Shown: in pieces, positions 10,417 through 46,819 of the stretch | How the letters are laid out: each line of letters begins with the position of its first letter | How positions within the stretch are numbered: the stretch's first letter is position 1 | Source of the DNA: Minisyncoccota bacterium | GTDB lineage: Bacteria > Patescibacteriota > Minisyncoccia > Phycocordibacterales > UBA9973 | Assembly (NCBI GenBank): GCA_041667145.1 | Contig: JBAYFP010000001.1 | Coordinates: forward strand, 17,958 to 81,957 | Reading direction: 5' to 3' | Length of the DNA: 64,000 nucleotides | Program-made: the position numbers and the translations under genes | Notes under the pieces: generated by a model | Told to the model about the DNA's origin: nothing | Databases searched by the model: none | Seen by the model: the letters and a program-made list of their open reading frames with translations, nothing else

Positions 10417-10561
10417 ATGTATTTAATTAATGAAAGAACTTTAATTATCTTAACAGAAAATGAGTAAAAAACAATAGAGTAGATTTATTATTGAATTTAA
10501 AGTATAATATGAATTATATTATTAATAATCAAAATCATAACCGTTTAAGGCGGTAAATTAT

Positions 10562-10687
10562 ATGGCAAAAAGAAGTACAACCCTTGGTCCAAAAAAGAAA
10601 TCACGACGTTCACATAAGACAAAGAAAAGATTAGAAATTAAAAGGCTTATGCTAGCTAAAAAGGCTACTAAAAGAAAACATAAGTAA
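10562..10687 (+). CDS. small highly basic protein (41 aa), ribosomal-protein-like
   Basis: MAKRSTTLGPKKKSRRSHKTKKRLEIKRLMLAKKATKRKHK; AAGGCGG SD upstream; the LAKKATKRKHK tail loosely resembles bL35. Confidence 0.3.
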   Translation: MAKRSTTLGPKKKSRRSHKTKKRLEIKRLMLAKKATKRKHK

Positions 10688-10689
10688 AT

Positions 10690-11136
10690 ATGAAGTCTAT
10701 ACTTAATTTTTTTGATAAACTTGAAGATAGAATCAGAGCTCAGTTGAGTCATTACCCTATACTTTATGCATTTATTGGTGGGGTAGGGATAGTTATCTTT
10801 TGGCGTGGTGTTTGGCATACGGCAGATTTTTTTACTACAATTATTGTTTTATACCAACAAAATGAATCAATTGATTTAGGTATTCTCCCTTGGTGGGATG
10901 GACCGTTGTCTCTCGTTGTTGGGAGTGCATTGCTTTTATCCACTGGTTTATTTGTATTTGATTTCATTGGTAGTCAGTCTATCATTTCAGGGCTTAAGGG
11001 AGAGAAAAAATTAGAAGAGAAAACAGAAGAAGAAGTCAGAGAAGAAACTGGTACAATAAAAGAGATAAAAGATGAAGTAAAAAAGATATCACGTCATTTA
11101 GATGAAATTGAAAAGGAATTAGAAGAAAAAAAATAG
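10690..11136 (+). CDS. hypothetical membrane protein with C-terminal coiled coil
   Basis: two TM segments then EEK-rich tail. Confidence 0.4.
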   Translation: MKSILNFFDKLEDRIRAQLSHYPILYAFIGGVGIVIFWRGVWHTADFFTTIIVLYQQNESIDLGILPWWDGPLSLVVGSALLLSTGLFVFDFIGSQSIISGLKGEKKLEEKTEEEVREETGTIKEIKDEVKKISRHLDEIEKELEEKK

Positions 11137-11844: not shown

Positions 11845-11849
11845 ATCAT

Positions 11850-11965
11850 AAAAAGTGAAGAACGAATATTTTTGCCGGTACGGATTTTTTGAAGCTTAAA
11901 AAATCCTGAAGTTTTCGCGCCGTCGCGCTCAAAACCCCTTAAAAACATTGTTCTTCACTTTTTAT
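11850..11965. repeat. structured repeat element copy 1: conserved 71-nt core inside a locus-specific long inverted repeat
   Basis: core 11876-11946 CGGTACGGATTTTTTGAAGCTTAAAAAATCCTGAA..AAACCCCTTAAAAAC shared with 27798-27869; flanks AAAAAGTGAAGAAC / GTTCTTCACTTTTT pair. Confidence 0.7.
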
Positions 11966-12135
11966 TTTTCACAAAACTTGTCGTAGGCGTACTTATTAGA
12001 AAACATTGCGCAGGAGCTTAGAAAATAAAGGAGGTATCCCGGACTATTATTTTCTTGAGTGACGAGCATAGCAATCCGCCAGCTGGCGGATATGCGTGTT
12101 TTATAATAAGTATGCCAAGTAAAAAGATTTGTGAT

Positions 12136-12641: not shown

Positions 12642-14402
12642 ATGAAAAGCGAGACGAAGCAATGTCAAAACTGCAAACAAGACTTTACAATAGAACCAGA
12701 AGATTTTAATTTCTATGAGAAAATAAAGGTTCCTCCACCGACTTTTTGCCCACTTTGTAGGGCAGAAAGGCGATTTACTTTTAGGAATGAACGTAAGCTT
12801 TTTAAAGTAAAAGATTTTTATACTGATAAGGATATTTTTTCTTTATATCCAGCACGTGATAGTAAAAAAAATTTTACTCAAGAAGAGTGGTTTAGTGACA
12901 ATTGGGATGCATTAGAATATGGTCGTGATTATGATTTTTCTATACCATTTTTTAAACAATTTTTTGATTTAGAAAAAGTAGTTCCAGTTTGGCCGCTTCG
13001 AGTTGAATACGTCGTAAATAGTCCATATAGTGCTAATGCCTCAGCACTTAAAAATTGTTATTTATGTTTTAATTCAAGTCAATCAAAAGATTGTATGTAT
13101 AATAATGCAATAGACTTCAGTACAGACTGTATTGATAATTCCCATATTTTTCAATCAGAACGATGCTATGAATGTTTTTGGACGGATAATTCCTACCAAT
13201 GTTATTATTCTATAATTTGTAAAGAATCCCATAATCTTTATTTTTGTAAAAATTGTCTCGGATGCTCGGATTGTTTTGGATGTGTAGATTTAAGGAAATC
13301 CTCGTATTGTATTTTTAATAAGCAATATACAAAAGAGGATTATAAAAAGGAGATAGAGAATATGAAATTAAATACCATTTCTGGAGTTTCAAGAGCAAGA
13401 GAGAAGGCTCGAGTTTTTTGGTTGACTATGCCAACAAAATATCATCAAGGTTTAAAAAATTACGATTCGACTGGTTCTTATGTAACGAATTGCAAAAACG
13501 TAAAAGAAAGTTTTCTAATGAGAGAAGGAGAAAATATTAAATATTCTCAATATTTACAAGTTCCGAAAAATAAAGATTGTTATGATGCTACTGCATGGGG
13601 ACAGAATATGGAACTTAATTATGAAACTTGTCTTTGTGGGGAAAATTCTTTTAATATAAAATTTTGTTCAGATTGCTGGCCTAATTTTAAAGATTCTGAA
13701 TATTGTATAAGTATGTTTAGTTGCTCGGATTGTTTTGGATGTGTTGGTTTAAAGAAAAAACAATATTGTATTTTGAATAAACAATATACAAAAGAAGAAT
13801 ATAAAATTTTAGTAGAAAAAATTAAAAAACATATGGATGATATGCCTTTTGTTGACAGTAAAGAAAGGATATATAAATATGGAGAATTTTTTCCTATAGA
13901 ATTTTCTCCATTTGGTTATAACAATACAACAGCAATTCAGTATTTTAAAATGACAAAGGAAGAAGCAGAAAAAAAGGGTTATCCATGGAAAGAAATTGAA
14001 AGGGGTGAATATAATATCACTAAAAAAGTATCAGAACTTTCTGATTCTATTAACGATGTTGATGATTCTATCTTAAAAGAAGTAATAGAATGTGAAAACT
14101 GTAAGAGACCTTATCGTATTTTAAAGAATGAATTTATTTTTTATAAAAAAGAAAATTTACCTCTACCTGATTTGTGTGATGAATGTCGTTTTAGAAGAAG
14201 AATTAATGACAGGCTGGGGATTAAGTTGTATGAAAGGTCCTGTATGTGTAAAAGCGATTCTGATGAAACAGGTGTCTATAAAAATACTGTAGAACATATA
14301 CATGGTAATGAACCTTGTGGTGAAATATTTAAAACTGGATATAGCCCTGATTCTAAAGAGATAGTATACTGTGAGAAATGTTATCAGCAGGAGGTTTATT
14401 AA
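12642..14402 (+). CDS. cysteine-rich protein, paralog 1 (about 60 Cys; N- and C-terminal zinc-ribbon-like CxxC pairs; internal repeats)
   Basis: CQNCKQDF..CPLCR N-terminal ribbon; internal duplicated blocks ..CKNCLGCSDCFGCV.. and ..CSDCFGCVGLKKKQYCILNKQYTKEEY..; C-terminal CENCK..CDECR..CEKCY. Confidence 0.6.
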   Translation: MKSETKQCQNCKQDFTIEPEDFNFYEKIKVPPPTFCPLCRAERRFTFRNERKLFKVKDFYTDKDIFSLYPARDSKKNFTQEEWFSDNWDALEYGRDYDFSIPFFKQFFDLEKVVPVWPLRVEYVVNSPYSANASALKNCYLCFNSSQSKDCMYNNAIDFSTDCIDNSHIFQSERCYECFWTDNSYQCYYSIICKESHNLYFCKNCLGCSDCFGCVDLRKSSYCIFNKQYTKEDYKKEIENMKLNTISGVSRAREKARVFWLTMPTKYHQGLKNYDSTGSYVTNCKNVKESFLMREGENIKYSQYLQVPKNKDCYDATAWGQNMELNYETCLCGENSFNIKFCSDCWPNFKDSEYCISMFSCSDCFGCVGLKKKQYCILNKQYTKEEYKILVEKIKKHMDDMPFVDSKERIYKYGEFFPIEFSPFGYNNTTAIQYFKMTKEEAEKKGYPWKEIERGEYNITKKVSELSDSINDVDDSILKEVIECENCKRPYRILKNEFIFYKKENLPLPDLCDECRFRRRINDRLGIKLYERSCMCKSDSDETGVYKNTVEHIHGNEPCGEIFKTGYSPDSKEIVYCEKCYQQEVY

Positions 14403-14405
14403 ATA

Positions 14406-14460
14406 CCCAGACGTTGGACATCTGGGGATTATCCATAGTTCCAGATGTCCAACATCTGGG
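14406..14460 (+). other. pair of GC-rich hairpins (inverted copies of a 21-nt unit) between the Cys-rich paralogs
   Basis: CCCAGACGTTGGACATCTGGG (14406-14426) and CCAGATGTCCAACATCTGG (14441-14459), each self-complementary. Confidence 0.5.
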
Positions 14461-14471
14461 TGAAGAAAATC

Positions 14472-16238
14472 ATGGAGTATAAAAATGAAAATAAAATATG
14501 TCAAAACTGTAAACAAGATTTTACAATAGAGCCAGAAGATTTCAATTTTTATGAAAAAATAAAGGTACCTTCACCGACGTTTTGTCCACTTTGTAGGGCA
14601 CAGAGAAGATTTGCTTTTAGAAATGAAAAAAAATTTTTTCGTACAAAAAGCGCATTTTCTAATAAGGACATTTTTTCTTTATTACCCAAAGAAAGTCAAA
14701 GAAAAATTGTGACCGAAGAAGAGTGGCATGGAGATACATGGGACGCGATGGAATATGCTAGTGAAATAGATTTTTCAAAACCATTTTTGAAACAAATTTT
14801 AGATTTAGAAAAACTAATACCCATTTATAATCTAAATTGTCAATTTATGGTAAATAGTCAGTATTCAGGGAATGCGACAGCCCTTAGAAATTGTTATCTT
14901 TGTTTTAATTCTAACCATTCTGAAGATTCTATGTATGGGAATGCAATCGATAGCTCAAAGGATTGTGTAGATAATTCACATGTAAACCATTCTGAAAGAT
15001 GTTATGAATGTTTTTGGTTAGAAAATTGTTATCAATGTTATTTTTCGATAATATGTAAAGATTCTTTTAATCTATATTTTTGTAAGAATTGCGTAGGATC
15101 TTCAAATTGTTTTGGGTGTATGAATTTAAGTAAATCATCTTTCTGTATTTTTAATAAACAATATACAAAAGAAGAATATGAAATTGAAATAGAAAAAATG
15201 AAATTGAACACAATTTCAGGAATTTCAAAAGCTAGAGAAAAAGCACGTATATTCTGGTTAACTAAACCAGTAAAAAATCATCAGGGTTTGAAGAATTTGA
15301 ATTCAACAGGTTCTTATGTGACAAATTGTAAAAACGTAAATGATAGTTATTTAATTAGGGAGAGTGAAAATATGCGTTATTGTCAGTATATGCAGGTTTC
15401 AGGTAACAAGGATTGTTATGATACCTCTATTTGGGGAGAACACATGGAGTTGGATTATGAGACTTGTCTTTCTGGTGAAAATTCTTACAATTTAAAATTC
15501 TGCTTAAATTGTTGGCCAGCTTGTCGGAATAATGAATATTGTATTAATCTTTTTAGTACGACGGATTGTTTTGGTTGTGTTGGTTTGAAAAAGAAACAGT
15601 ATTGTATCTTAAATAAACAATATACAAAAGAAGAATACGAAATTTTGGTAGAAAAAATTAAGAACCATATGTATGAAATGCCATATGTTGATTCACAAGG
15701 TCTTGTTTATAAATATGGGGAGTTTTTCCCAATAGAATTTTCAGCATATGGATACAACAATTCGATTGCTTTTCAACATTTCCCGATTACGAAAGATGAG
15801 GCAGAAAAAAGGGGATATTTATGGATTGAAGTTCCTCATGGAGAATATACTATTACGAAAAAAGTTTCGGATCTCCCAGATTCGATTGATGATGTTGATG
15901 ATAATTTTTTAAGGGAAGTTGTAGAATGTGAAAATTGTAAAAATGCTTTTCGTGTCTTAGAGGATGAATTAAATTTTTTACAAAAAGAGAAACTTCCTTT
16001 ACCGACGATGTGTCATGATTGTAGACATAAAAGAAGGATAAGTGATAGATTGGAAATAAAATTATATGAAAGATCTTGTATGTGCAAGGGGGACTTTGAT
16101 GAAACTGGTGTTTATAAAAATACTGTAAAACATATACATAGTGATGAACCTTGCGGTGAAATATTTAAAACTGGATATAATCCTGATTCAAAAGAAATAG
16201 TATATTGTGAAAAATGTTATCAGCAGGAGGTATATTAA
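14472..16238 (+). CDS. cysteine-rich protein, paralog 2 (tandem duplicate of 12642-14402)
   Basis: roughly two-thirds identical to paralog 1 along full length; start moved to the Met aligned with paralog 1 (the ORF-track start 14445 overlaps the hairpin). Confidence 0.6.
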   Translation: MEYKNENKICQNCKQDFTIEPEDFNFYEKIKVPSPTFCPLCRAQRRFAFRNEKKFFRTKSAFSNKDIFSLLPKESQRKIVTEEEWHGDTWDAMEYASEIDFSKPFLKQILDLEKLIPIYNLNCQFMVNSQYSGNATALRNCYLCFNSNHSEDSMYGNAIDSSKDCVDNSHVNHSERCYECFWLENCYQCYFSIICKDSFNLYFCKNCVGSSNCFGCMNLSKSSFCIFNKQYTKEEYEIEIEKMKLNTISGISKAREKARIFWLTKPVKNHQGLKNLNSTGSYVTNCKNVNDSYLIRESENMRYCQYMQVSGNKDCYDTSIWGEHMELDYETCLSGENSYNLKFCLNCWPACRNNEYCINLFSTTDCFGCVGLKKKQYCILNKQYTKEEYEILVEKIKNHMYEMPYVDSQGLVYKYGEFFPIEFSAYGYNNSIAFQHFPITKDEAEKRGYLWIEVPHGEYTITKKVSDLPDSIDDVDDNFLREVVECENCKNAFRVLEDELNFLQKEKLPLPTMCHDCRHKRRISDRLEIKLYERSCMCKGDFDETGVYKNTVKHIHSDEPCGEIFKTGYNPDSKEIVYCEKCYQQEVY

Positions 16239-16275
16239 GAGGAGGCCGGACCTTTTTAGAAGGTCCGGCCTCCTC
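16239..16275 (+). terminator. 16-bp GC-rich perfect hairpin right after the paralog-2 stop
   Basis: GAGGAGGCCGGACCTT / AAGGTCCGGCCTCCTC; no T-run follows. Confidence 0.4.
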
Positions 16276-16290
16276 TAGTTATCCACAATT

Positions 16291-20412: not shown

Positions 20413-21317
20413 TTTTTATAATCTATCTCTTTTCCCCCTTCTGGAATAATCTTTTTTATTATAAACTGGTTATTTTCAAGTATCGCATCTGTAATTATTA
20501 TTCTTTTGCCATTCTTAAAAAAGAAAGTTCGGGGCCAAGTAGCATAAGCTCTGAATTTATTATAATTATTTACCCCATCATCATTTAAATTTATAAACCC
20601 GTCTTCTTTCTTAATTTTCTTGCAATAGGTGGCTTGAGATTCGTTTTGTTTTTCTCCCCCTGCGAAGGGGGAGTGTCCAGAGGACGAGGGGGTCTTTAAT
20701 ATTTTTACTAAAAGTTCTCCCCCAATTTTTATCATACGTTTACGTAATTCTCCTGCTTTTTCATCTGGCTTAATTTCTATTTTTTCTACAGCTATGATAG
20801 GTCCTGTATCCATCTTGTATTCCATCTTTTGGATAGTGACGCCCGTTTCTGTATCCCCATTTAATATAGCTGATTCTACAGGAGAGGCTCCACGATATTT
20901 GGGAAGTAGAGAATAATGAATGTTTATAGAAACTAGTTTAGGTAGATTTATTAAATCTTCTGGAATTATTTTTCCATAGGCGACTACCAGAAAGAAATCT
21001 GGTAAGGATTTGCTTTTAGCGGGTGTCTCGCAGGCTGACGAGCCGAGAGGCAGCGCTGTGCCAGTAGGCACAGACAGCGACCCGATAAAAGTAGAATCCT
21101 TACCAGATAGAATCTCGGGTTGCAGATAGGGGACATTGTTATTTATTGCCCAAACTTTTACGGGTGGGGGAGTTATGAGCATTTTACGTCCTTGTGGTTT
21201 ATCGGGAGCAGTGATTATAAGCGATGGCATATAGCCGTTTTCTTTTAGAATTTCTAATGTTTCGGAAGCGACATCTGGTGTTCCCCAGAATATGAAATTT
21301 AAATTTTTTGTATTCAC
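20409..21317 (-). CDS. fmt: methionyl-tRNA formyltransferase
   Basis: HYSLLPKYRGASP motif, N-terminal formyltransferase domain; carries two GC-rich palindromic inserts. Confidence 0.85.
   Translation of the reverse strand: MNTKNLNFIFWGTPDVASETLEILKENGYMPSLIITAPDKPQGRKMLITPPPVKVWAINNNVPYLQPEILSGKDSTFIGSLSVPTGTALPLGSSACETPAKSKSLPDFFLVVAYGKIIPEDLINLPKLVSINIHYSLLPKYRGASPVESAILNGDTETGVTIQKMEYKMDTGPIIAVEKIEIKPDEKAGELRKRMIKIGGELLVKILKTPSSSGHSPFAGGEKQNESQATYCKKIKKEDGFINLNDDGVNNYNKFRAYATWPRTFFFKNGKRIIITDAILENNQFIIKKIIPEGGKEIDYKN
20654..20673. repeat. GC-rich hairpin CTCCCCCTGCGAAGGGGGAG inside fmt
   Basis: 8-bp perfect stem in AT-rich coding context; encodes extra low-complexity residues. Confidence 0.45.
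21054..21079. repeat. GC-rich palindrome CGCTGTGCCAGTAGGCACAGACAGCG inside fmt
   Basis: 7-bp stem CTGTGCC/GGCACAG inside an insertion encoding GSLSVPTGTALPLGSS. Confidence 0.4.
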
Positions 21318-24006: not shown

Positions 24007-24537
24007 ATGAAATTAATCGTTGGCTTGGGCAATCCAGGCGAAGAATATAAAAATACCAGACACAATACTGGGTATATTATGCTTGATATGGTTGAGAAAA
24101 AAATAGATTTGAAAGATAAAGTTAGATTTGTTTATCCAGATAAATTTATGAATAATTCTGGTAAAGTAGTCGGACCCTTGATAAAATCAAAAAAAGATTT
24201 GAAAGATCTTGTAGTGATTTATGATGACATTGATTTGCCAATAGGGAAAATGAAGATATCTTTCAATAGATCCTCGGGTGGACATAATGGTTTAGGTTCT
24301 ATAATAAAAGCATTAAAGTCTGAAGAATTTGTACGTATTCGTATTGGTATATCTAAAGCGACTCCTTCAGGAAAAATAAGAAAACCAAAAGGGGAGAAAG
24401 AAGTGCTAAAATTTTTACTTGGTGAATACAAAAAGAATGAGTTAGATGAACTTAAAAAACTTTCAAAAAAAGTGATTTTAGCTATTGAAACTATTTTTAC
24501 TGAAAGTAAAGATAAAGCGATGAGTTTGTATAATTAA
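24007..24537 (+). CDS. pth: peptidyl-tRNA hydrolase
   Basis: MKLIVGLGNPG..YKNTRHNTG motif; start moved to the internal Met. Confidence 0.85.
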   Translation: MKLIVGLGNPGEEYKNTRHNTGYIMLDMVEKKIDLKDKVRFVYPDKFMNNSGKVVGPLIKSKKDLKDLVVIYDDIDLPIGKMKISFNRSSGGHNGLGSIIKALKSEEFVRIRIGISKATPSGKIRKPKGEKEVLKFLLGEYKKNELDELKKLSKKVILAIETIFTESKDKAMSLYN

Positions 24538-27500
24538 ATCGCTTTCACTGCCTCTATAATTATACTTTTTTCGCCATTGCGAAGAGAAACTTTGCCGGAG
24601 AGGGCGATACATTTTTCGGGGACGAGTATGTCTACTGATTCTTTGAATATAGAAGGGAATGCGACGGCTTCTATCGATCCAGTAAAGTCAGAAATTTTTA
24701 AGAATGCCATGCGGTCATTGTTTTTTGTGATGACGACTCTAGCTGTCTCTATTATTCCAGCTATGGTGACAGGAATACCGTTTCCTAATTTTTCTTTTAT
24801 TTTTTTAATATTTATATCTCTGCTTTCTAATTTTTCGCGAACTCTGTCTAATGGATGTCCCGAAATATATAGTCCCAGCAATTCTTTTTCCCAAAGTAAT
24901 TTATCTGCCTGAGTTGCCGGTGGGGCTTCTTTTAATTTAAAAGTAGAAATGTCGGATTGTGGCAAGCCACCAAAGAGAGAAGTTTGATTTTCATTTTGGT
25001 TAAATGATTCTTTATTAAAGAGAAGCATATCCTCAAGGTTTGCAAGTAAAACTCCTCGATCAGCCCATTCATCCATACTGCCGGATTTGATCAAAGCTTC
25101 CATGGATTTTTTATTTAAATTTTTGTGTTTAATTCTTTTTAAGAAATCTGTAATGGATTTAAATTTGCCGTTTAATTTTCTCTCCGCTATTATCGCGTCT
25201 GAAATATCTGTACCGAGATTTTTAATCGTATAGAAACCAAATCTTATTTTTTCGCTAATATTTTTTTCTTCATCCCTTATTACCGTAAAGCCGCCATAGT
25301 TTTCATTTATGTTTGGAGGGAGAACTGGGATATTCATATTTTTGCATTCATTAATTATTTCAGAAATCTTTTCTACGTCGCCTGATTCAGCTGTAAGGAT
25401 GGCTGTCATATATTCGACAGGGTAATTGGCTTTCATATAGGCTGTCTGATAAGCGACGCGTCCATAGCTTGCGGCATGAGCTTTGTTGAAACCGTAGGCT
25501 TGGAATGGTTCAAAAAGTTTCCAAAGTTTCTCAGCAAATTCTGGAGTTTGTCCATTTGAAATAATTCCCTTAGTAAATTTTTCTCTTTGAGCTGCCATTT
25601 CTTTTGGAATTTTTTTACCGACAGCTTTTCTGAATTTATCTGCTTCTTCCCAGTTGTATCCGGCTAGCTCTATAGCACAAAAGAGGAGGTCGTCTTGATA
25701 AACGATAAGCCCGTATGATTCACCTAAGAATTTCTTCATTCGAGGATCTAAATATTTTACAAGATTTCTATTGTGTTTACGTTTAATATATTCTGGAATT
25801 GATTCCATAGGTCCAGGGCGGTATAGGGCGACCATTGCATTGATATCATGAATAGAAGTAGGTTTAAGCTCTTTTAAATATCTTGTCATTCCTGCACCGT
25901 TTAATTGGAATAGTCCTTCTGTTTGCCCACTAGCCAAAAGTGAGAAAGTTTTTTTGTCATTGAGGGGGATACGTTCTATGTCTATATCTATATTATAAAA
26001 TCTTTTGACTAGACTTATAGCGTCTCCTAATATTGCCAAGTTTCTAATACCCAAAAAATCAAATTTCAAAAGTCCGGCATCTTCGACACTGTACATATCA
26101 TATTGGGTAATTATTTTTCCACCCTTAGGGTCAAATTGAGTAGGTACATATTCATAAAGAGGTTTTGGAGCGATGACGACCCCGGCGGCATGTACTGAAA
26201 TGTGTCGTACACATCCTTCCAATTTTTTTGCTAGGTCTATAATTTTTTTAGTATCTTTTTCATCTTTATATGCTCCTTTTAATTCTGGAACCATTTCCAT
26301 CGCGTGGTCTATGGTCATTGGCATTCCCTGAGAACCCATTGGGATCATTTTTGAAATTCTGTCACCAATACTGTATGGGTAGCCTAATGCTCGAGCGACA
26401 TCACGCACGGCACCTCTGGCCATCATCGTACCAAATGTACCTATTTGTGCCACTTTATCCTCGCCATATTTCTTTTTCGCATATTCGATCATTTCGTCTC
26501 GTCTATTGTCGGCGTAGTCCATATCTATATCAGGAGGAGAAGGACGAAATGGGTTTAAAAATCTTTCAAAGGGAAGTTTGTATTCTATGGGGTTTACATT
26601 AGTAATACCAAGAAGATAGGTAACCATAGATCCGGCGACAGAACCTCGAATAGTCGTCAAAATACCATTATCTTTTGCATAATCTAATAAATCATCAACT
26701 ACTAGAAAATATGGTGAATATCCTTTTTTAAAAATAATTTTTAATTCATATTCTACTCTTTCAATAATTTCTGGTGTTTGTTTTATTCCTATATTTTCAA
26801 AACCAGCATAAGTAAGCTCGCGTAATTTTTCGTCATATGTCATACCTGCCTCAATTTTAAAATCTGGGAAAACCCAACTCCCGAGCTCGAGTTCAAGATC
26901 ACACATATCGGCTATTTTTTGAGTATTTGTCACAGCTTCAGGAATATCTTTAAAGATTTTTAAGGCTTCCTTTGTATCTATCAATGAAAAATCATCATCT
27001 GAAAATTCAAATTTTGATGTTTCTTTATTGTCTCCTTGTGTATTTATTTGAAGCAATGTATGGTGTGCCTCATGGTCTTCACTACATGGATAATGAGAGT
27101 CCTGTGTAGCAACGACAGGGATGTTGTGTTTCTTTGCGAGTTTCACCAATGTGTCACGCACATGTTTGTCATTTTCTACAGATGGGTGACATTGTATTTC
27201 TATAAAATAATTTTCCTTACCAAATATTTTTTGATATTCAGAAATAATTTTTTCTGCTTTTATCATATCATTACGAGCGATACTTTGAGACAATTCTCCT
27301 CCAAGACAACCCGAGAGAGCAATGACGCCTTCGTGATATTGCTCTAAAATTTCTTTATCCATTCTTGGTTTGTAATAATATCCTTCTAGATTTGAAATAG
27401 TGACGAGTCTGATGAGATTTTTGTACCCTTGTAAATTTTTTGCTAGAAGAGTGAGGTGATAATAACGTTTGCCGCCATCTGATTCTGTCGTTCTGTCTTT

Positions 27501-27746
27501 TCGAGAACCTGCTGTCATATATGCCTCGACTCCAATGATGGGTTTGATGCCTTCTTTTTTTGCTAATTTATAAAATTCTATAGCGCCATACATATTGCCA
27601 TGGTCAGTGACAGCTATAGCGGGCATGTTGTTTTTTTTAGCGAGGGCGACTAAATCTTTAAGCTTAGAAAGCCCATCCAAGAGAGAATAATGGCTGTGTG
27701 TATGTAGGTGTATGAAGCTTGTTTCTGATTTTTCCATTTTTAACAT
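24534..27746 (-). CDS. dnaE: DNA polymerase III alpha subunit
   Basis: PHP domain HLHTHSHYSLLDG, polymerase core, 1070 aa. Confidence 0.9.
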   Translation of the reverse strand: MLKMEKSETSFIHLHTHSHYSLLDGLSKLKDLVALAKKNNMPAIAVTDHGNMYGAIEFYKLAKKEGIKPIIGVEAYMTAGSRKDRTTESDGGKRYYHLTLLAKNLQGYKNLIRLVTISNLEGYYYKPRMDKEILEQYHEGVIALSGCLGGELSQSIARNDMIKAEKIISEYQKIFGKENYFIEIQCHPSVENDKHVRDTLVKLAKKHNIPVVATQDSHYPCSEDHEAHHTLLQINTQGDNKETSKFEFSDDDFSLIDTKEALKIFKDIPEAVTNTQKIADMCDLELELGSWVFPDFKIEAGMTYDEKLRELTYAGFENIGIKQTPEIIERVEYELKIIFKKGYSPYFLVVDDLLDYAKDNGILTTIRGSVAGSMVTYLLGITNVNPIEYKLPFERFLNPFRPSPPDIDMDYADNRRDEMIEYAKKKYGEDKVAQIGTFGTMMARGAVRDVARALGYPYSIGDRISKMIPMGSQGMPMTIDHAMEMVPELKGAYKDEKDTKKIIDLAKKLEGCVRHISVHAAGVVIAPKPLYEYVPTQFDPKGGKIITQYDMYSVEDAGLLKFDFLGIRNLAILGDAISLVKRFYNIDIDIERIPLNDKKTFSLLASGQTEGLFQLNGAGMTRYLKELKPTSIHDINAMVALYRPGPMESIPEYIKRKHNRNLVKYLDPRMKKFLGESYGLIVYQDDLLFCAIELAGYNWEEADKFRKAVGKKIPKEMAAQREKFTKGIISNGQTPEFAEKLWKLFEPFQAYGFNKAHAASYGRVAYQTAYMKANYPVEYMTAILTAESGDVEKISEIINECKNMNIPVLPPNINENYGGFTVIRDEEKNISEKIRFGFYTIKNLGTDISDAIIAERKLNGKFKSITDFLKRIKHKNLNKKSMEALIKSGSMDEWADRGVLLANLEDMLLFNKESFNQNENQTSLFGGLPQSDISTFKLKEAPPATQADKLLWEKELLGLYISGHPLDRVREKLESRDINIKKIKEKLGNGIPVTIAGIIETARVVITKNNDRMAFLKISDFTGSIEAVAFPSIFKESVDILVPEKCIALSGKVSLRNGEKSIIIEAVKAI

Positions 27747-27773
27747 AATAGCATAAAATTAGATTATTAAAAT

Positions 27774-27887
27774 AAAAGAGCAAAAGATAAATTTTTGTCG
27801 GTACGGATTTTTTGAAGCTTAAAAAATCCTGAAATTCTCGGCTCGACAGCCTCGAAACCCCTTAAAAACTTATCTTTTGCTCTTTTA
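27774..27887. repeat. structured repeat element copy 2 (core 27798-27869 inside a 23-bp perfect locus-specific inverted repeat)
   Basis: flanks AAAAGAGCAAAAGATAAATTTTT / AAAAACTTATCTTTTGCTCTTTT; second internal hairpin shows compensatory changes vs copy 1. Confidence 0.7.
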
Positions 27888-27894
27888 TTTTGTA

Positions 27895-27903
27895 TGTTAT
27901 AAT
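27895..27903 (+). promoter_or_regulatory. extended -10 TGTTATAAT 6 nt upstream of the gap ATG
   Basis: TGTTATAAT-attctt-ATG. Confidence 0.5.
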
Positions 27904-37043: not shown

Positions 37044-38000
37044 ATGAAAAATGAAATTAAAATTTTTTGTGTAAAAGATTGGAAAGACTATGAGCTTTTA
37101 GATACTGGTGAAGGGGAAAAATTGGAAAGATTTGGTCCGTATACTTTTGTGCGTCCATATGAGGATGCTGTTTGGCTGAAAACTTTAGAAAACAAAGAAT
37201 GGGCGAAAGCTGATGGTAAATTTTGGAGTTCAAAAGTTGGTGCAAAGCCTGGATGGAAGATGAATAATAAAATTGAGAAGAAATGGGAGATGGAATATAA
37301 AGGGGTTAAATTTTTTGCTTCTCCTACATCTTTTAGACATTTAAGTTTCTTTCCTGAACAGGCGTATCATTGGGATTCTATATATGAAAAGATTACTTCA
37401 CAGAATGAGACTTTTTCTCGGGTCCTCGAGGCAGAGCCCCAGACCAGCTCAAAAAAGTCTCATTCTGTTTCGTTAGATTTAAAAAAAATAAAATTTCTGA
37501 ATCTTTTTGGTTACACTGGGGTCGCTAGTTTGTTTGCTTTGAAGGCTGGGGCAGAAGTGACGCATGTCGATGCTTCAAAATCTTCTATTGAACAGGCAAA
37601 AGAAAATCAGAAAATAAATATTGAATTGGCTGAAGCGCCTATGCGGGCTATTTGTGATGATGTACTTAAGTTTTTAGAAAGGGAAGTAAAGAGAGGAAAT
37701 AAATATGATGCTGTTGTTATGGATCCACCTAAATTTGGTCGCGGGCCTAAAGGAGAAATTTGGGAAATTGAAAAAGATTTACCGAAACTTCTTTCGTTGG
37801 TTCGTAAAATTTTGAGTGATAAACCACTTTTTGTTATTTTGAATTCTTATGCCATAGATTCATCCTCGCTTTCTTTAGGTTATGCCCTAGAGGATGCCAT
37901 GAAGGTTTTAGATGGCGAAGTTTCTGTTGGTGAGCTTTGCCTCTTAGAAAAATCTAATAATAGAACTATTTCTCTTTCAAATACTGCTATTTGGTGCTAA
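37044..38000 (+). CDS. class I SAM-dependent methyltransferase (RlmI/YccW-like)
   Basis: FGYTGVASL (motif I), VVMDPPKF (DPPxF motif IV). Confidence 0.5.
   Translation: MKNEIKIFCVKDWKDYELLDTGEGEKLERFGPYTFVRPYEDAVWLKTLENKEWAKADGKFWSSKVGAKPGWKMNNKIEKKWEMEYKGVKFFASPTSFRHLSFFPEQAYHWDSIYEKITSQNETFSRVLEAEPQTSSKKSHSVSLDLKKIKFLNLFGYTGVASLFALKAGAEVTHVDASKSSIEQAKENQKINIELAEAPMRAICDDVLKFLEREVKRGNKYDAVVMDPPKFGRGPKGEIWEIEKDLPKLLSLVRKILSDKPLFVILNSYAIDSSSLSLGYALEDAMKVLDGEVSVGELCLLEKSNNRTISLSNTAIWC
37428..37459. repeat. GC-rich element (family E: GGTCCTCGAG..CCCAGACCA) inside the MTase CDS
   Basis: CGGGTCCTCGAGGCAGAGCCCCAGACCAGCTC; cf. 40438-40467 and 60754-60798. Confidence 0.45.
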
Positions 38001-38587: not shown

Positions 38588-40946
38588 AACAATTGAATTA
38601 AAAATCCAGAGGGAATGGGAAAAGAAAAAAATTTATTCTGTCTCTGAAAAATCTAAAAAACTAAAATTTTATGGTTTGGTTGAATTTCCATATCCTTCAG
38701 GAGAGGGTTTGCATATTGGGCACCCTCGTTCGTACACAGCAATGGATATTATTGCACGTAAACGAAGAATGGAAGGGATGAATGTTTTGTATTCAATCGG
38801 CTGGGATGCTTTTGGATTGCCTACAGAAAATTATGCTATTAAGACTGGAATTCAGCCGGCGATTGTTACAAAGAAAAATACAGATACATTTCGCAAACAA
38901 TTAAAAAGTTTGGGATTTTCATTTGATTGGTCTAGGGAAATAAATACAACTGATCCGAAATATTATAAATGGACACAGTGGATTTTCTTACAGTTTTTCA
39001 AAAAGGGCTTAGCATATAAAGCAAAATCTTACATAAATTGGTGTCCGAAAGATAAAATAGGATTAGCTAATGAAGAGGCTGTGGGTGGTATTTGTGATCG
39101 TTGTGGAAGTGCTACAGAAAAGCGTGAAAAAGAACAGTGGATGCTTGCTATCACAAAGTATGCAGATAGACTCGATAAAGATTTAGATTTAGTTGATTAT
39201 CCTGAGCGAGTAAAAATACAACAAAAAAATTGGATAGGGAAAAGTGAAGGAAGTGAGATTTTATTTAAAATTCCTCTTAGCTCTTTTTTTGTAAAAGTAT
39301 TTACTACTAGGCCTGATACACTTTTTGGTGTTACGTATGTTGTGCTTGCGCCAGAGCATCAATTAGTTGCAAAACTTTTTGATCAAATCGAAAATAAAAA
39401 GGAAGTTCAAAAATTTATTGAGGATACTAAAAAGAAAACTGAGTTAGAAAGGACAGCAGAGAACAAAAATAAAACGGGGATTGAATTAAAAGGTATTAAA
39501 GCTTTAAATCCTGCAAATAATGAAGAGGTGCCTGTCTGGATAGCTGATTATGTATTAGCAGATTATGGTACAGGGGCGGTAATGGCTGTACCACAACATG
39601 ACGCACGAGATAGAGAATTTGCAGAAAAATATAATTTACCGATAATAGATAAGCCTTTAGTTGATGCAAAAGAAATTACTAAAAAAGTCGGTGGGAAAAT
39701 TGTTACAAAATTTAAATTACGAGATTGGGTGTTTTCAAGGCAGAGGTATTGGGGTGAGCCGATACCGATAATAAATTGCGAAAAATGTGGCTCTGTGCCA
39801 GTGCCAGAAAAAGATTTACCTGTGAAATTACCAGAAGTGAAAAGTTATAAGCCAACGAATAATGGAGAGTCTCCACTTGCTAGTATTTTAAAATGGGTGA
39901 ATGTAAAATGTCCTAAATGTAAAGGTAAAGCAAAGAGGGAAACAGACACCATGCCTAATTGGGCAGGAAGCTCTTGGTATTATTTAAGATATACTGATCC
40001 TAAAAATAATAAGGTTTTTGCAGACCCTAAAAAAATGAAATATTGGCTTGGGAACAAATCGGGGCAGGGCGGTGTAGATTGGTATAACGGAGGAATGGAA
40101 CACACTACTCTTCATTTATTGTATTCTCGTTTTTGGCATAAATTTTTGTATGATTTAAAACTTGTGCCGACTATTGAGCCGTATCAAAAAAGGACTTCAC
40201 ATGGGATGATTTTGGGTGAAGGGGGAGTAAAAATGTCTAAATCTTTAGGCAATGTGGTAAATCCAGATGATATTGTGAAAACTTACGGTGCGGATACTTT
40301 ACGAGTATATGAAATGTTTATTGGGCCTTTTGAAGAATCTGTAGCTTGGAGTACAGAAAGTATTATCGGTTCGAGAAGGTTTATAGAAAAAGTTTGGAGG
40401 TTGAGAAATAAAGCGGAAGAGAGTCCAAAGAATTTTTCAGGTCCTCGAGATAAATCCCAGACCATTCAAAATCCTTCGGCCTCTCTCCCGCTTCAAAAAC
40501 TTTTACATAAAACTATTAAAAAAGTGGGAGAAGATATAGAAAATATGCGTTTTAATACTGCTATTTCTGCAATGATGATACTTGCAACAGAGATGGAGAA
40601 AGTAGAAACTGTTGATGTAGAGGATTTTAAAAAGTTTTTACAAATTTTAGCTCCATTTGCTCCACATATTGTTGAAGAAATTTGGCAAAATTTAAGAGAA
40701 AAAAAATCTATTAGTTTTTCAGAATGGCCTAAATATGATGAAAATCTAATAAAAGATAAAGAAATAAAAATAGCCGTGCAAGTAAATGGTAAATTTAGAA
40801 CTGAGATTCTAATAGAGGTAGATGAGAAAGAAGAAATTGTAAAAAATAAAGCTTTGAAAAATGAAATAGTTTTGAAATATATGATGGGTGGATCTCCTAA
40901 AAAGGTGATTTATGTAAAAAATAGACTTATCAACATATTAACCTAG
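38568..40946 (+). CDS. leuS: leucyl-tRNA synthetase
   Basis: HIGH (HIGHPRSY) and KMSKS (VKMSKSLGNVV) motifs, CP1/zinc region; start moved to MKNYNHK. Confidence 0.85.
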   Translation: MKNYNHKTIELKIQREWEKKKIYSVSEKSKKLKFYGLVEFPYPSGEGLHIGHPRSYTAMDIIARKRRMEGMNVLYSIGWDAFGLPTENYAIKTGIQPAIVTKKNTDTFRKQLKSLGFSFDWSREINTTDPKYYKWTQWIFLQFFKKGLAYKAKSYINWCPKDKIGLANEEAVGGICDRCGSATEKREKEQWMLAITKYADRLDKDLDLVDYPERVKIQQKNWIGKSEGSEILFKIPLSSFFVKVFTTRPDTLFGVTYVVLAPEHQLVAKLFDQIENKKEVQKFIEDTKKKTELERTAENKNKTGIELKGIKALNPANNEEVPVWIADYVLADYGTGAVMAVPQHDARDREFAEKYNLPIIDKPLVDAKEITKKVGGKIVTKFKLRDWVFSRQRYWGEPIPIINCEKCGSVPVPEKDLPVKLPEVKSYKPTNNGESPLASILKWVNVKCPKCKGKAKRETDTMPNWAGSSWYYLRYTDPKNNKVFADPKKMKYWLGNKSGQGGVDWYNGGMEHTTLHLLYSRFWHKFLYDLKLVPTIEPYQKRTSHGMILGEGGVKMSKSLGNVVNPDDIVKTYGADTLRVYEMFIGPFEESVAWSTESIIGSRRFIEKVWRLRNKAEESPKNFSGPRDKSQTIQNPSASLPLQKLLHKTIKKVGEDIENMRFNTAISAMMILATEMEKVETVDVEDFKKFLQILAPFAPHIVEEIWQNLREKKSISFSEWPKYDENLIKDKEIKIAVQVNGKFRTEILIEVDEKEEIVKNKALKNEIVLKYMMGGSPKKVIYVKNRLINILT
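40438..40467. repeat. family E GC-rich element inside leuS
   Basis: CAGGTCCTCGAGATAAATCCCAGACCATTC. Confidence 0.45.
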
Positions 40947-44927: not shown

Positions 44928-46811
44928 ATGAAATTAGGAAATATTAGAAACTTCAGCATAATAGCTCATATTGATCATGGGAAGAGTACCTTGGCAGATC
45001 GAATGCTTGAGATTACTCATACTATTCCAGAACGTAAAATGCGCGACCAGGTGTTAGATACTATGGAGCTTGAACGTGAACGTGGAATTACTATCAAAAT
45101 GCAACCTGTGAGGATGGAATTTTCCCCGAATTCCCCGAAACCAGGTTTAGGGGGAATTCCCCTAAACCTGGTTTCGGGGAAAAATGAGACTTATGTTTTA
45201 AACCTTATAGACACTCCTGGACATATAGATTTCTCTTATGAGGTATCTCGCGCCCTAAAGGCTGTAGAGGGGTCTATTTTGTTGGTTGATGCAACACAGG
45301 GAGTACAGGCGCAAACACTTACTACGCTTAATATGGCGCGTGAGGGAGGCATCAAGATCATCCCTGTTCTGTCTAAAATAGATTCACCTTTGGCCCGTGT
45401 GGAAGAGGTAAAAAAGGAGGTTATAGAGCTTTTAAATTGTGATTCTAATGATGTTCTTATGGTCTCAGGACGTACAGGTGAAGGAGTGGAAAATTTGTTA
45501 CAAGAGATCATAAAACGTGTTCCACCACCAAAAGAAAATTACCAACAAGGTGAAAATATTTTACGTGCTCTTGTTTTTGATTTTAAATATTCAAGCCATA
45601 AAGGTGTGATAGTTTTTATTCGATTACTTGATGGGCAAGTAAAGAAAGGAGAGAGTTTAATTTTTTCAGTTTCAGGAGAGAAATTTAGTTCTCTTGAAGT
45701 TGGTACTTTTTCTCCTGAAGAAACTCCTAGGGATTTTTTGTCAGCAGGAGACACAGGATACATTGTCACAGGTATTAAAAGGCCAGGTATAGCTTCTGTT
45801 GGAGATACCATTACTAAAGAAAAAAATCCATTACCTCCGCTTCCTGGATACATGCAACCGATGCCTGTCGTTTGGGCTTCTGTTTTTCCTGAAGACGCGG
45901 ATGACTTTATGGAGTTAAAGGCCTCATTAGGTAAATTAAAACTTTCGGATTCTTCTTTTTCTTATGAGGAAGAATCTTCAGGTTCATTGGGGCGGGGTTT
46001 TCGTTGTGGATTTTTAGGAATGTTACATTTGGAAATAATTACAGAAAGATTAAGACGAGAATTTAATTTAAAATTAGTAATCACAACACCTTCTATTACT
46101 TACGAAGTTGTTATGAAAAATCCTTCTATAGTTTCAGGGCATTTTGGTAAAAAAGTAAAAATATATTCTCCATATTTTTTCCCAGATGATGGAAATATAG
46201 AAACAGTTCAAGAGCCTTGGGTTGATGTAAAAATAATTTCTCCAGCAAAATTTTTAGGTAATATTATGCAACTTCTTTTCGACCATGAAGCGGAAGTAAG
46301 AGAAACAGATAATTTTGGTAATAATCGTTCTTCTTTATCTGTCAGAATGCCACTTCGTGAACTTATGCGTAATTTTTTTGATGAATTAAAAAGTGTAACA
46401 TCTGGCTATGGATCTATTTCTTATAAAATAGGGGAAATGAGAGAAGCGAATGTCACTCGACTCGATATTCTTGTAGCGGATGAAGTCGTTCCAGCTTTTT
46501 CGAGAGTTATAGCAAAAAAGAGAGCGGAAGAAGAAGCAGAAAAAGCTGTTGAAAGGCTAGAAGGTATTTTACCAAGACAGATGTTTACTTTAAAAATACA
46601 GGGTAGAGCTTTAGGGCGTATTATTTCTTCACGTACAATGTCTGGCATGAAAAAAGATGTCACCCAGCACATGTATGGTGGAGATATCACTCGTAAAATG
46701 AAGCTTCGTGAGAAACAGAAAAAAGGGAAGAAGAAAATGAAAGAGCGAGGCAGGGTAAATATCCCACAGGATGTATTCTTAAAAATGATGCGTTCGGGGA
46801 ATGATAATTAG
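44928..46811 (+). CDS. lepA: elongation factor 4 (LepA)
   Basis: GTPase motifs AHIDHGKST, DTPGH; LepA C-terminal domain; carries in-frame palindromic insert. Confidence 0.9.
   Translation: MKLGNIRNFSIIAHIDHGKSTLADRMLEITHTIPERKMRDQVLDTMELERERGITIKMQPVRMEFSPNSPKPGLGGIPLNLVSGKNETYVLNLIDTPGHIDFSYEVSRALKAVEGSILLVDATQGVQAQTLTTLNMAREGGIKIIPVLSKIDSPLARVEEVKKEVIELLNCDSNDVLMVSGRTGEGVENLLQEIIKRVPPPKENYQQGENILRALVFDFKYSSHKGVIVFIRLLDGQVKKGESLIFSVSGEKFSSLEVGTFSPEETPRDFLSAGDTGYIVTGIKRPGIASVGDTITKEKNPLPPLPGYMQPMPVVWASVFPEDADDFMELKASLGKLKLSDSSFSYEEESSGSLGRGFRCGFLGMLHLEIITERLRREFNLKLVITTPSITYEVVMKNPSIVSGHFGKKVKIYSPYFFPDDGNIETVQEPWVDVKIISPAKFLGNIMQLLFDHEAEVRETDNFGNNRSSLSVRMPLRELMRNFFDELKSVTSGYGSISYKIGEMREANVTRLDILVADEVVPAFSRVIAKKRAEEEAEKAVERLEGILPRQMFTLKIQGRALGRIISSRTMSGMKKDVTQHMYGGDITRKMKLREKQKKGKKKMKERGRVNIPQDVFLKMMRSGNDN
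45124..45179. repeat. 46-bp near-perfect palindrome inserted in frame in lepA (family C)
   Basis: CCCCGAAACCAGGTTTAGGGG-gaatt-CCCCTAAACCTGGTTTCGGGG (45133-45179), with a partial extra half-copy 45124-45132; adds about 14 aa before DTPGH. Confidence 0.75.
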
Positions 46812-46819
46812 ATTAAGAC

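What the first reader, a model, noticed from the sequence alone, without database searches (positions are those of the whole stretch)
27774..27887. Second copy of the core-in-hairpin element, in the divergent dnaE/gap promoter region
Same conserved core (27798-27869) as at 11876-11946, but wrapped in a different 23-bp perfect inverted repeat. It lies immediately upstream of the gap extended -10 (27895-27903) and of the dnaE start (27746, minus strand), so it could influence both promoters or be a transcribed RNA.
Basis: seen in the sequence. Interest (0 to 1): 0.55.

Follow-up and report, generated by a model that had tools for sequence, protein, structure and literature searches.

The report
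Mobile palindromic repeat between dnaE and gap
The hairpin between dnaE and gap is one copy of a roughly 120-bp selfish palindromic repeat that is scattered through the tiny genomes of Nomurabacteria-type (CPR) bacteria, even in frame inside protein genes, and close relatives do without it at this spot.

Summary
Window 27769-27891 is a long hairpin: 28-nt arms with one A.C mismatch, around a ~72-nt core. The same core recurs at 11848-11965 inside different arms.

It is not a locus-specific regulator. A pattern scan found the core in 110 loci from 48 species-level Nomurabacteria/Paceibacterota genomes, 1-11 copies each. Each copy has its own arms, and all three helices covary.

Non-canonical pairs (G.U, tandem G.A) favour one strand, the window minus strand.

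In relatives with 88-92% identical GAPDH, the dnaE-gap spacer takes four states:
- empty (19-53 nt);
- filled;
- filled in the opposite orientation;
- holding decayed remnants.

The element sits between two conserved back-to-back extended -10 promoters, so it probably lies outside both mRNAs.

The family also sits in frame inside an M1 aminopeptidase gene. There, 46 of 120 homologues carry inserts of at least 8 core families at one site.

Cores are more alike within a genome than between genomes.

Best reading: a non-autonomous palindromic mobile repeat, like MITEs and Rickettsia palindromic elements. It is unusual in having a conserved structured core and variable arms. The mobilising enzyme and any host function are unknown. 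No Rfam family matched and the literature searches run here found no description.

The parts
27769..27891 (-). Copy 2 of the palindromic element (123 bp). The structurally favoured strand (R strand) is the window minus strand.
   Evidence: Inverted repeat; fold. Covariance model R1 scores 141.2 bits on the minus strand and 33.9 bits on the plus strand.
27769..27791 (.). Outer arm (A-rich on the + strand). It pairs with 27869-27891. The sequence is specific to this copy.
   Evidence: covariation of helix P1 (23 of 28 pairs change on both sides).
27792..27796 (.). TTTTT half of the inner T5/A5 helix, which bounds the core in all family members and in sister families.
27797..27804 (.). Junction GTCGGTAC. 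GGT (27800-27802) can pair with ACC (27857-27859).
   Evidence: GGTAC was fixed by the search pattern; model-found copies show limited variation here.
27805..27829 (.). Hairpin P3: GGATTTTTT / loop GAAGCTT / AAAAAATCC.
   Evidence: repeat I4; 5 of 9 pairs with compensatory changes, 99.7% of cells paired.
27835..27856 (.). Hairpin P4 (subtype C): TTC-TC-GGCT-CGAC-AGCC-TC-GAA. On the minus strand the TC/TC internal loop is a tandem G.A/G.A.
   Evidence: 7 of 9 pairs covary; tandem GA in nearly all copies, at one of two registers.
27857..27868 (.). Junction ACCCCTT plus the AAAAA half of the T5/A5 helix.
27869..27891 (.). Outer arm (T-rich on the + strand), partner of 27769-27791. C27869 faces A27791 (A.C on +, G.U on -).
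   Evidence: The equivalent alignment column is G.U in 59 of 112 copies on the R strand.
11848..11965 (-). Copy 1 of the same family (P4 subtype A-like), between the convergent SIMPL-domain and EamA genes.
   Evidence: R1 scores 132.6 bits on the minus strand.
27895..27903 (+). gap extended -10 (TGTTATAAT), 6 nt before the ATG at 27910, which suggests a leaderless mRNA. It is conserved in relatives with and without the element.
27745..27753 (-). dnaE extended -10 (TGCTATTAT on the minus strand), 7 nt before the ATG at 27737. It is conserved in relatives with and without the element.
   Evidence: dnaE identity.

Best explanation
**What it is.** Window 27769-27891 is one copy of a non-autonomous, roughly 120-bp palindromic interspersed repeat. 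It is a selfish mobile element of the MITE / Rickettsia-palindromic-element kind, and it populates Nomurabacteria/Paceibacterota (CPR) genomes.

**Architecture.** The unit has five parts in order:
- an A-rich arm;
- TTTTT;
- a ~67-nt core with two hairpins, P3 (A/U-rich) and P4 (G+C-rich, with a tandem G.A);
- AAAAA;
- a T-rich arm.

**What is shown.**
- Copies are gained, flipped, decayed and lost at given sites.
- Copies lie in any intergenic context and in frame inside genes.
- Cores are homogenised or exchanged among the copies of a genome, while the arms at a site are inherited.
- The fold is better on one strand, the window minus strand.

**What is inferred.**
- The element spreads through a single-stranded or hairpin form of that strand, recognised by a trans-acting enzyme not identified here.
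- No direct target duplication was detected, which argues against a classical DDE cut-and-paste MITE.
- Arm complementarity is kept either by selection for the hairpin or by fold-back (quasi-palindrome) templated correction.
- Core types are swapped between copies by gene conversion through the shared T5/A5 and inner-arm sequences.

**At this locus.** The copy landed in the short spacer between the two back-to-back extended -10, probably leaderless, promoters of dnaE and gap. It is tolerated there because neither promoter depends on a -35. It is dispensable, since near relatives lack it.
For: **Spread.** 110 true loci in 48 species-level assemblies, 1-11 strict copies each, plus about 20 extra or variant copies found by the covariance model.

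**Structure.** 35 of 49 pairs show changes on both sides, and 0 of 500 shuffles reach the observed values.

**Strand asymmetry.**
- G.U on the R strand versus the + strand: 59 vs 2 at the arm/T5 junction, 9 vs 1 in P3, 7 vs 2 in P4.
- Tandem G.A in nearly all copies.
- Model scores of 141 and 133 bits on the minus strand against 34 and 23 on the plus strand.

**dnaE-gap spacer in relatives.**
- Empty: L119 (19 nt), L113/L114 (40 nt), L115 (53 nt).
- Filled, with different arms and P4 subtypes: window, L044.
- Filled in the opposite orientation relative to the genes: L073.
- Internally deleted: L121.
- Reduced to one arm: L116-L118.

**Other sites.** Other empty orthologous sites carry plain terminator hairpins or a 16-20 nt operon junction.

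**Nested element.** In L056 a family-1 copy is interrupted by a family-2 hairpin element.

**In-frame copies.**
- An M1 aminopeptidase carries the element in frame in both orientations.
- 46 of 120 homologues have inserts of at least 8 core families at the same site.

**Copying within genomes.**
- Cores differ less within a genome than between genomes (6.5 vs 8.8 differences, 0 of 2000 permutations), and rare P3 variants cluster by genome.
- Syntenic copies share arms but not core subtype.

**Known families.** No Rfam family matches. RPE, Correia and SPRITE properties are taken from PMC10969869.
Against: - No transposase or parental insertion sequence was identified, and no movement was seen directly.
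- The core is about 92% identical between copies in species whose flanking genes are only 65-84% identical at the DNA level. That is unusually strong conservation for decaying selfish DNA. It could mean a host-level function or frequent horizontal spread.
- Arms covary even between copies at the same site, including inside a coding region. This could reflect selection for a hairpin rather than neutral templated correction.
- Orientation flips could be inversions through the arms rather than independent insertions.
- Copies were collected with a pattern that fixes 24 core positions, so conservation at those positions is by construction.
Confidence: 0.72

Rival explanations
1. The element is primarily a host-functional RNA hairpin. 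It would act as a bidirectional intrinsic terminator or insulator, or as an RNase III processing or stability element, with a core that binds a conserved protein. Its spread would be secondary.
For: - It is enriched at gene 3' ends and in convergent spacers (31 convergent vs 14 divergent). The arms abut or overlap stop codons.
- At orthologous sites other genomes have ordinary terminator hairpins, for example AAAAAAATCCCCCAACGGGGGATTTTTTT in L002 against the element in L082.
- The layout of A-rich 5' arm and U-rich 3' arm on both strands is that of a bidirectional terminator.
- The core is more conserved than neighbouring genes.
- Where it splits an operon junction, it comes with a promoter-like sequence.
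Against: - Copy 2 and 13 other copies sit in divergent spacers upstream of promoters, where nothing needs terminating.
- In tandem contexts the favoured strand is more often antisense to the genes (27 vs 15).
- Copies lie in frame inside coding genes.
- The copy at dnaE-gap is absent or decayed in near relatives.
- The simple terminator scan does not call either window copy.
- Some copies sit next to an ordinary G+C-rich terminator (L010, L109).
Confidence: 0.14
2. It is a DNA-level regulatory site for dnaE and gap. The hairpin or cruciform, or a protein bound to the core, would set the activity of the two divergent promoters.
For: - It sits exactly between two back-to-back extended -10 boxes and replaces both upstream (-35/UP) regions with T-rich arms.
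- Three different fillings of this same spacer exist in relatives.
- Correia elements are known to carry promoters and IHF sites (PMC10969869).
Against: - The same promoters work in relatives with a 19-53 nt spacer and no element, and remnants decay.
- Nothing about the element is specific to this locus.
- No promoter-like hexamers were called inside it.
Confidence: 0.07
3. It is a multi-copy gene for a trans-acting small structured RNA, possibly a ribozyme. The core would be the mature RNA and the variable arms a processing stem.
For: - All helices covary and the junction nucleotides are conserved.
- G.U and tandem G.A pairs are strand-specific.
- The core is tRNA-sized and enclosed by a long stem of the kind RNase III cleaves.
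Against: - No conserved promoter lies upstream in either orientation (alignment flanks).
- Orientation relative to neighbouring genes is not fixed.
- Copies are translated within genes.
- Copy number varies from 1 to 11 or more, and individual sites are gained and lost.
- No Rfam match, including all known self-cleaving ribozymes.
Confidence: 0.05

Closest known systems
Rickettsia palindromic elements (RPEs)
   Same: - Palindromic repeats of about 100-150 bp in a reduced-genome, host-dependent bacterium.
- Several families.
- Found in intergenic DNA and, unusually, in frame inside unrelated housekeeping genes, where they add a 30-50 aa peptide (RPE properties from PMC10969869; here).
- No known transposase.
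   Different: - Different phylum (CPR, not Alphaproteobacteria). Sequence relatedness was not tested.
- Here the core is highly conserved across at least 48 species while the arms differ from copy to copy.
- Many core families reuse one site in one gene.
Bacterial MITEs such as Correia (Neisseria), ERIC and RUP
   Same: - Small, non-coding, multi-copy and hairpin-forming.
- Show presence/absence polymorphism.
- Insert next to promoters and gene ends.
- Can invert.
- Can insert into one another (PMC10969869; here).
   Different: - MITEs are defined by conserved terminal inverted repeats matching a parental insertion sequence, and by direct target duplications.
- Here the termini are the variable part, no direct duplication was detected, and no parental element is known.
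[quoted passage not shown]
   Same: Interspersed repeats that look like terminators or long hairpins. They sit at gene ends and can take the place of ordinary terminators (PMC10969869).
   Different: - REP and REPIN units keep the palindrome itself conserved and rely on a RAYT gene (stated from my own knowledge).
- Here a 67-nt two-hairpin core is conserved and the long stem is free to vary.
- The stems are A/T-rich, not G+C-rich.

Membership tests
MITE (miniature inverted-repeat transposable element) | Small (under about 500 bp), non-coding, many dispersed copies | tested here: met
   Median length 121 bp. 110 loci in 48 genomes. Two copies in the window.
MITE (miniature inverted-repeat transposable element) | Terminal inverted repeats shared by the copies of a family | tested here: not met
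   Every copy has inverted arms of about 22 bp, but their sequence differs from copy to copy. Only the 7-9 bp next to the core are semi-conserved.
MITE (miniature inverted-repeat transposable element) | Direct target-site duplication flanking the element | tested here: inconclusive
   No k-mer of 2-6 bp is clearly enriched as a direct repeat at the hairpin ends in 106 copies (k=4: 4 observed vs 1.1 expected). Element ends are hard to define in A/T-rich flanks.
MITE (miniature inverted-repeat transposable element) | Presence/absence polymorphism at orthologous sites | tested here: met
   dnaE-gap spacer: empty, filled, flipped and decayed states. Other sites.
MITE (miniature inverted-repeat transposable element) | Parental autonomous insertion sequence or transposase with matching ends | not tested
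   Only 8-kb blocks around copies were held. No split or ORF-carrying version appeared among the model hits.
Rickettsia palindromic elements (as a functional class) | Palindromic repeat inserted in frame in protein-coding genes and read through as peptide | tested here: met
   M1 aminopeptidase in L005, L018, L029, L099 and L050. 46 of 120 homologues carry inserts at that site. Sister hairpins in the window lie in LeuRS, LepA, Fmt and a methyltransferase.
Rickettsia palindromic elements (as a homologous family) | Sequence homology to RPE-1 to RPE-10 of Rickettsia | not tested
   No RPE sequences were compared. The host phylum differs, so this is treated as an analogue and not a member.
Rho-independent terminator | Short G+C-rich stem-loop followed by a U run, placed after a gene's 3' end | tested here: not met
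   The terminator scan calls neither copy. The stems are A/U-rich with a 67-nt structured loop. Copy 2 lies upstream of two genes, not after one.
Any Rfam 15 RNA family (riboswitches, ribozymes, sRNAs) | Score at or above the family's gathering threshold | tested here: not met
   No hit at gathering thresholds. At E<=10 only generic long-hairpin families appear, far below threshold.
REP/REPIN with RAYT | 20-40 nt conserved palindrome (singly or as an inverted doublet) plus a RAYT transposase gene in the genome | tested here: inconclusive
   The anatomy differs: the centre is conserved and the stem variable. Presence of a RAYT or Y1 transposase in these genomes could not be checked with the sequence held.
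Integron attC site | Conserved outer R/L boxes with a variable centre, next to cassette ORFs and an integrase | tested here: not met
   The opposite layout is seen: the centre is conserved and the outer arms vary. Copies are solitary and lie between housekeeping genes.

The most novel reading that the evidence does not exclude
The conserved two-hairpin core may be a strand-specific folded nucleic acid (single-stranded DNA or RNA) recognised by a dedicated machinery, so far unknown, that is specific to these bacteria. That machinery would place or exchange 'core cassettes' inside hairpin landing pads bounded by TTTTT/AAAAA.

This would explain three findings:
- many unrelated cores occupy one identical site in the aminopeptidase gene;
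- the arms at a site stay while the core changes;
- the core is conserved far beyond the neighbouring genes.

It would amount to a new class of mobile element, or a new ribozyme or protein-binding RNA carried by one.
Probability: 0.2. Interest if true: 0.8.

Novelty: new variant of a known kind. Interest (0 to 1): 0.58.

Why it matters
CPR bacteria have some of the smallest and most streamlined genomes known and are usually described as poor in mobile DNA. This work points to a superfamily of palindromic repeats that:
- persists across at least 48 species;
- invades housekeeping genes in frame;
- replaces ordinary terminators;
- splits operons.

If confirmed, this would be a significant force in CPR genome and protein evolution. 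It would partly explain the many unexplained insertions seen in CPR proteins.

The inverted logic of the element, with a conserved structured core and free arms, together with the reuse of single sites by many core types, hints at a mobilisation or exchange mechanism that has not been described.

For annotation, recognising these repeats prevents them from being read as locus-specific regulators, small-RNA genes or odd protein domains.

Tried and rejected
- **Rfam.** Searches at gathering thresholds and at E<=10 gave only generic hairpin hits.
- **Viral contigs.** The pattern scan returned 0 hits.
- **Exact-protein look-up of gap.** One attempt used the wrong frame. A second, including the stop codon, found nothing. 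The source contig was later reached through the homologue search.
- **Hammerhead and other ribozyme cores.** Considered by eye and rejected: CUGAAGU/CAAAAC do not fit CUGAUGA/GAAA, and there is no Rfam hit.
- **attC, CRISPR or TIGR array, riboswitch or 5' UTR element.** Rejected on anatomy and on the variable gene context.
- **Element ends from minimum-free-energy folds.** These over-extended the stems. They were replaced by anchored stem extension, which showed no direct target duplication.
- **'One arm is ancestral host sequence, the other an inverted copy made at insertion'.**
  - Some coding and stop-codon-overlapping copies suggested it.
  - The dnaE-gap comparison suggests both arms came in with the element.
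  - Left unresolved.
- **Apparent direct duplication of a 'x-K-I-N' coding segment around the aminopeptidase insert.** It is not shared by the other insert families, so it was not used.
- **TTTTTAAAAA as the target site.** Not seen in the empty dnaE-gap spacers.
- **Synteny screen at 60% flank identity.** This was too permissive in A/T-rich DNA, so only the top pairs were used.
- **Literature.** Six full-text searches found no description of such repeats in Nomurabacteria, Parcubacteria, Patescibacteria or CPR.

Full report
**1. The observation.**
- Reading the window and the repeat finder confirm a long hairpin at 27769-27891.
- Its arms, 27769-27796 and 27864-27891, are 28 nt and 96% complementary. 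They break down as 22 perfect pairs, one A.C mismatch (27791/27869), then a TTTTT/AAAAA helix.
- The arms enclose a ~67-nt core. The same core occurs at 11848-11965 inside different arms.
- A 34-nt exact stretch is found only at these two places, with none expected by chance.
- Both strands fold far better than shuffles: RNA z = -9.3 and -9.6 for copy 2; DNA parameters give -31 and -32 kcal/mol.
- The flanking genes are DNA polymerase III alpha (24534..27746, minus strand) and GAPDH (ATG at 27910).
- The window comes from a 203-kb contig of a 'Candidatus Paceibacterota' metagenome-assembled genome.

**2. It is a widespread family.**
- No Rfam family matches, at gathering thresholds or at E<=10.
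- I scanned one genome per species with a gapped pattern taken from the core. It returned 111 loci. One, from a Bacteroidetes genome, is a chance match.
- The other 110 come from 48 assemblies labelled Nomurabacteria, Paceibacterota, Patescibacteria or Parcubacteria, plus some probably mislabelled bins. Each carries 1-11 strict copies.
- Every copy is wrapped in its own inverted repeat, with an A-rich 5' arm and a T-rich 3' arm. Only the 7-9 bp next to the core are semi-conserved.
- A covariance model built from 112 copies finds only the two copies in the window. In the related loci it finds about 20 more, including variants at positions the pattern had fixed.
- The pattern fixes 24 positions, so conservation at those positions is by construction.

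**3. Anatomy and strand.**
- On the alignment (A2), the proposed structure has four helices:
  - P1, made of the arms plus T5/A5, 28 bp;
  - a 2-3 bp junction helix;
  - P4, G+C-rich;
  - P3, A/U-rich.
- It is strongly supported. 35 of 49 pairs change on both sides, 83% of cells are paired against 73% in shuffles, and no shuffle or slid version comes close.
- Non-canonical pairs single out one strand, the window minus strand ('R strand'):
  - G.U at the arm/T5 junction in 59 copies, against 2 for the other strand;
  - 9 vs 1 in P3;
  - 7 vs 2 in P4.
- In nearly all copies P4 contains a tandem G.A/G.A, which would be U.C/C.U on the other strand. It sits at one of two registers while the helix length stays constant.
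- The model scores 141 and 133 bits on the minus strand, against 34 and 23 on the plus strand.
- So a single-stranded form of that strand, RNA or DNA, has mattered in the family's history.

**4. Context.**
- Oriented by the R strand, the copies divide as follows: 31 in convergent spacers, 27 and 15 in the two tandem arrangements, and 14 in divergent spacers.
- Arms abut or overlap stop codons, and lie about 20-28 nt from start codons.
- There is no fixed orientation relative to transcription. This argues against a 5' UTR element or a one-way terminator.

**5. The dnaE-gap spacer in close relatives (GAPDH 88-92% identical).**
- Both genes have conserved extended -10 boxes: TGCTATTAT for dnaE (27753-27745) and TGTTATAAT for gap (27895-27903).
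- Each box lies 6-7 nt before an ATG, which suggests leaderless mRNAs. It also suggests that dnaE starts at 27737.
- The spacer takes several states in relatives:

| State | Loci | Detail |
|---|---|---|
| Empty | L119, L113/L114, L115 | the two start codons are 19, 40 and 53 nt apart |
| Filled | window | its own arms, P4 subtype C |
| Filled | L044 | other arms, P4 subtype A |
| Filled, opposite orientation relative to the genes | L073 | other arms, P4 subtype B |
| Decayed | L121 | keeps L044-like arms but has lost most of the core |
| Decayed | L116-L118 | keep only one arm |

- The site has therefore been filled, possibly more than once, then flipped, eroded and emptied.
- The element is not needed for dnaE or gap.
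- Because it lies upstream of both -10 boxes, it is probably not part of either mRNA (inference).

**6. Other sites.**
- At orthologous positions, some genomes carry the element where others carry an ordinary terminator hairpin (L082 vs L002; L055 vs L004 and L041; L002 vs L020). Elsewhere the alternative is a 16-20 nt operon junction (L024, L012, L071, L094 and L072 vs L053 and L016). In that last case the element comes with a promoter-like sequence.
- In L056 a family-1 copy is cut short by a hairpin element with a different core. That core type also occurs in the window at 40404-40500 and 37383-37485.

**7. In-frame copies.**
- The R strand has one open frame (FLRG..ISGFFKLQKIRTGKN).
- Family-1 copies lie in frame inside an M1 aminopeptidase gene in L005, L018, L029 and L099.
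- In L050 the copy is inverted. There a compensated P3 variant removes the stop codon of the other strand.
- Among 120 homologues of this enzyme, 74 have no insert and 46 carry a 20-55 aa insert at the same position.
- The inserts belong to at least 8 different peptide (core) families. Many begin ..FL and end ..KKF or ..KKV, which is what the T5 and A5 runs would encode.
- The window's own long hairpins lie in frame in LeuRS, LepA, Fmt and a methyltransferase. Like family 1, they have a T4-6/A4-6 inner helix around a G+C-rich core.
- This is the behaviour described for Rickettsia palindromic elements (PMC10969869).

**8. Dynamics.**
- Element length has a median of 121 bp, with arms of about 22 bp. 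No direct target duplication stands out.
- Copies at syntenic sites share arms (up to 0.9 identity, against 0.65 for random pairs). Their cores are no more alike than those of random pairs (0.92), and P4 subtypes differ between syntenic copies.
- Within a genome, cores are more alike than between genomes (6.5 vs 8.8 differences; 0 of 2000 permutations).
- Rare P3 variants cluster by genome, yet several P4 subtypes coexist in one genome.
- This points to intragenomic copying, by transposition or gene conversion, after the species diverged. It also points to exchange of cores within stable arms.

**9. Interpretation.**
- The best-supported reading is a non-autonomous palindromic mobile repeat of the MITE/RPE kind.
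- Shown: wide distribution, structure, strand asymmetry, site polymorphism, decay, nesting, in-frame insertion and concerted evolution.
- Inferred: the way it moves. The strand-specific fold and the lack of a direct duplication lean towards a single-strand or hairpin-based mechanism rather than classical cut-and-paste.
- Arm complementarity may be kept by fold-back templated correction, by selection for a hairpin, or by both.
- Cores may be swapped by gene conversion through the shared T5/A5 and inner-arm sequences.
- A host role as a bidirectional terminator is plausible for the many copies at gene ends. It cannot apply to copy 2.

**10. What remains odd.**
- The core is about 92% identical between species whose neighbouring genes are only 65-84% identical at the DNA level.
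- One codon-level site in one gene has been occupied by many core families.
- Both points leave room for an undescribed machinery that recognises the core or the hairpin. I put this at about 0.2.

**11. Limits.**
- No expression data were available and no whole genomes were searched, so no transposase search was possible.
- Copies were ascertained by a pattern.
- Literature searches cover only the open-access library.

Noticed in passing
window 40404-40500 (LeuRS aa 628-660), 37383-37485 (methyltransferase aa 114-148), 20992-21113 (Fmt aa 69-109), 45118-45194 (LepA aa 64-89): Four further long, near-perfect hairpins lie inside real protein-coding genes and are read through in frame. The first two share a core (GGTCTGGG..CTCGAGGACC). 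The Fmt one has a P4-like GGCTGACGAGCC hairpin. The LepA one is a 23-bp perfect G+C-rich palindrome inside the GTPase domain. They look like sister families of the element studied.
   Followed up: partly
window 46809-46923, 14393-14473, 16225-16289: More long perfect hairpins (18-22 bp stems) at gene junctions, with other or no cores. They may be further members of the hairpin superfamily or unusually long terminators.
   Followed up: no
related loci L005, L018, L029, L050, L099 and proteins P0121-P0240: One site in the M1 aminopeptidase (after ..IWQIP.., before ..KINFGETGFYR..) carries inserts in 46 of 120 homologues. The inserts come from at least 8 different palindromic-element families, in either orientation. 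This is a striking insertion or exchange hot spot.
   Followed up: partly
window 27745-27753 (-) and 27895-27903 (+), with 27737 and 27910: dnaE and gap both appear to use extended -10 promoters placed 6-7 nt from the ATG, which suggests leaderless mRNAs. The arrangement is conserved in relatives, and in L119 the two start codons are only 19 nt apart. The dnaE ATG at 27746 overlaps the -10 and is probably not the true start.
   Followed up: partly
window 7766-7897 (-): A full-length match to the Rfam LOOT RNA (77 bits, gathering score 46).
   Followed up: no
window 10145-10456 (-): Group I intron match (66.7 bits). The unaligned insert near its 5' end contains a tRNA-like 5' half (GGGGUAGCUCAGCGGUAGAGCGGUCGCCUGUGU). 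This suggests an intron-split tRNA, but ARAGORN calls no tRNA at 9900-10700.
   Followed up: partly
window 11978-12135; also L054 6564 onward and L074 7931 onward: Next to copy 1 lies a 170-nt non-coding stretch beginning TTGTCGTAGGCGTACTTATTAGAAAACATTGCGCAG. This start is conserved next to element copies in other genomes. The stretch has no Rfam match and contains a CCGCCAGCTGGCGG hairpin. It may be another conserved RNA.
   Followed up: partly
L056 3579-3731: A family-1 element is truncated within P3 by a complete family-2 hairpin element, that is, one element nested in or replacing another.
   Followed up: partly
L074, L084, L102, L107 (JAMPXW01) and several 'Saccharibacteria'-labelled assemblies: Contigs carrying this Nomurabacteria-type element belong to a MAG labelled Burkholderiales and to TPA MAGs labelled Saccharibacteria. 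These are probably mis-binned or mislabelled.
   Followed up: no
L092 7049-7172, L080 7242-7374, L083 6889-7014, L094 6145-6263, L060 4558-4692: Weaker model hits are sister families. They keep the P4 module (GCGAGCGCGACGGCGCGAGC, with tandem GA) and an A/U-rich second hairpin, but have different junctions. The cores appear modular.
   Followed up: no
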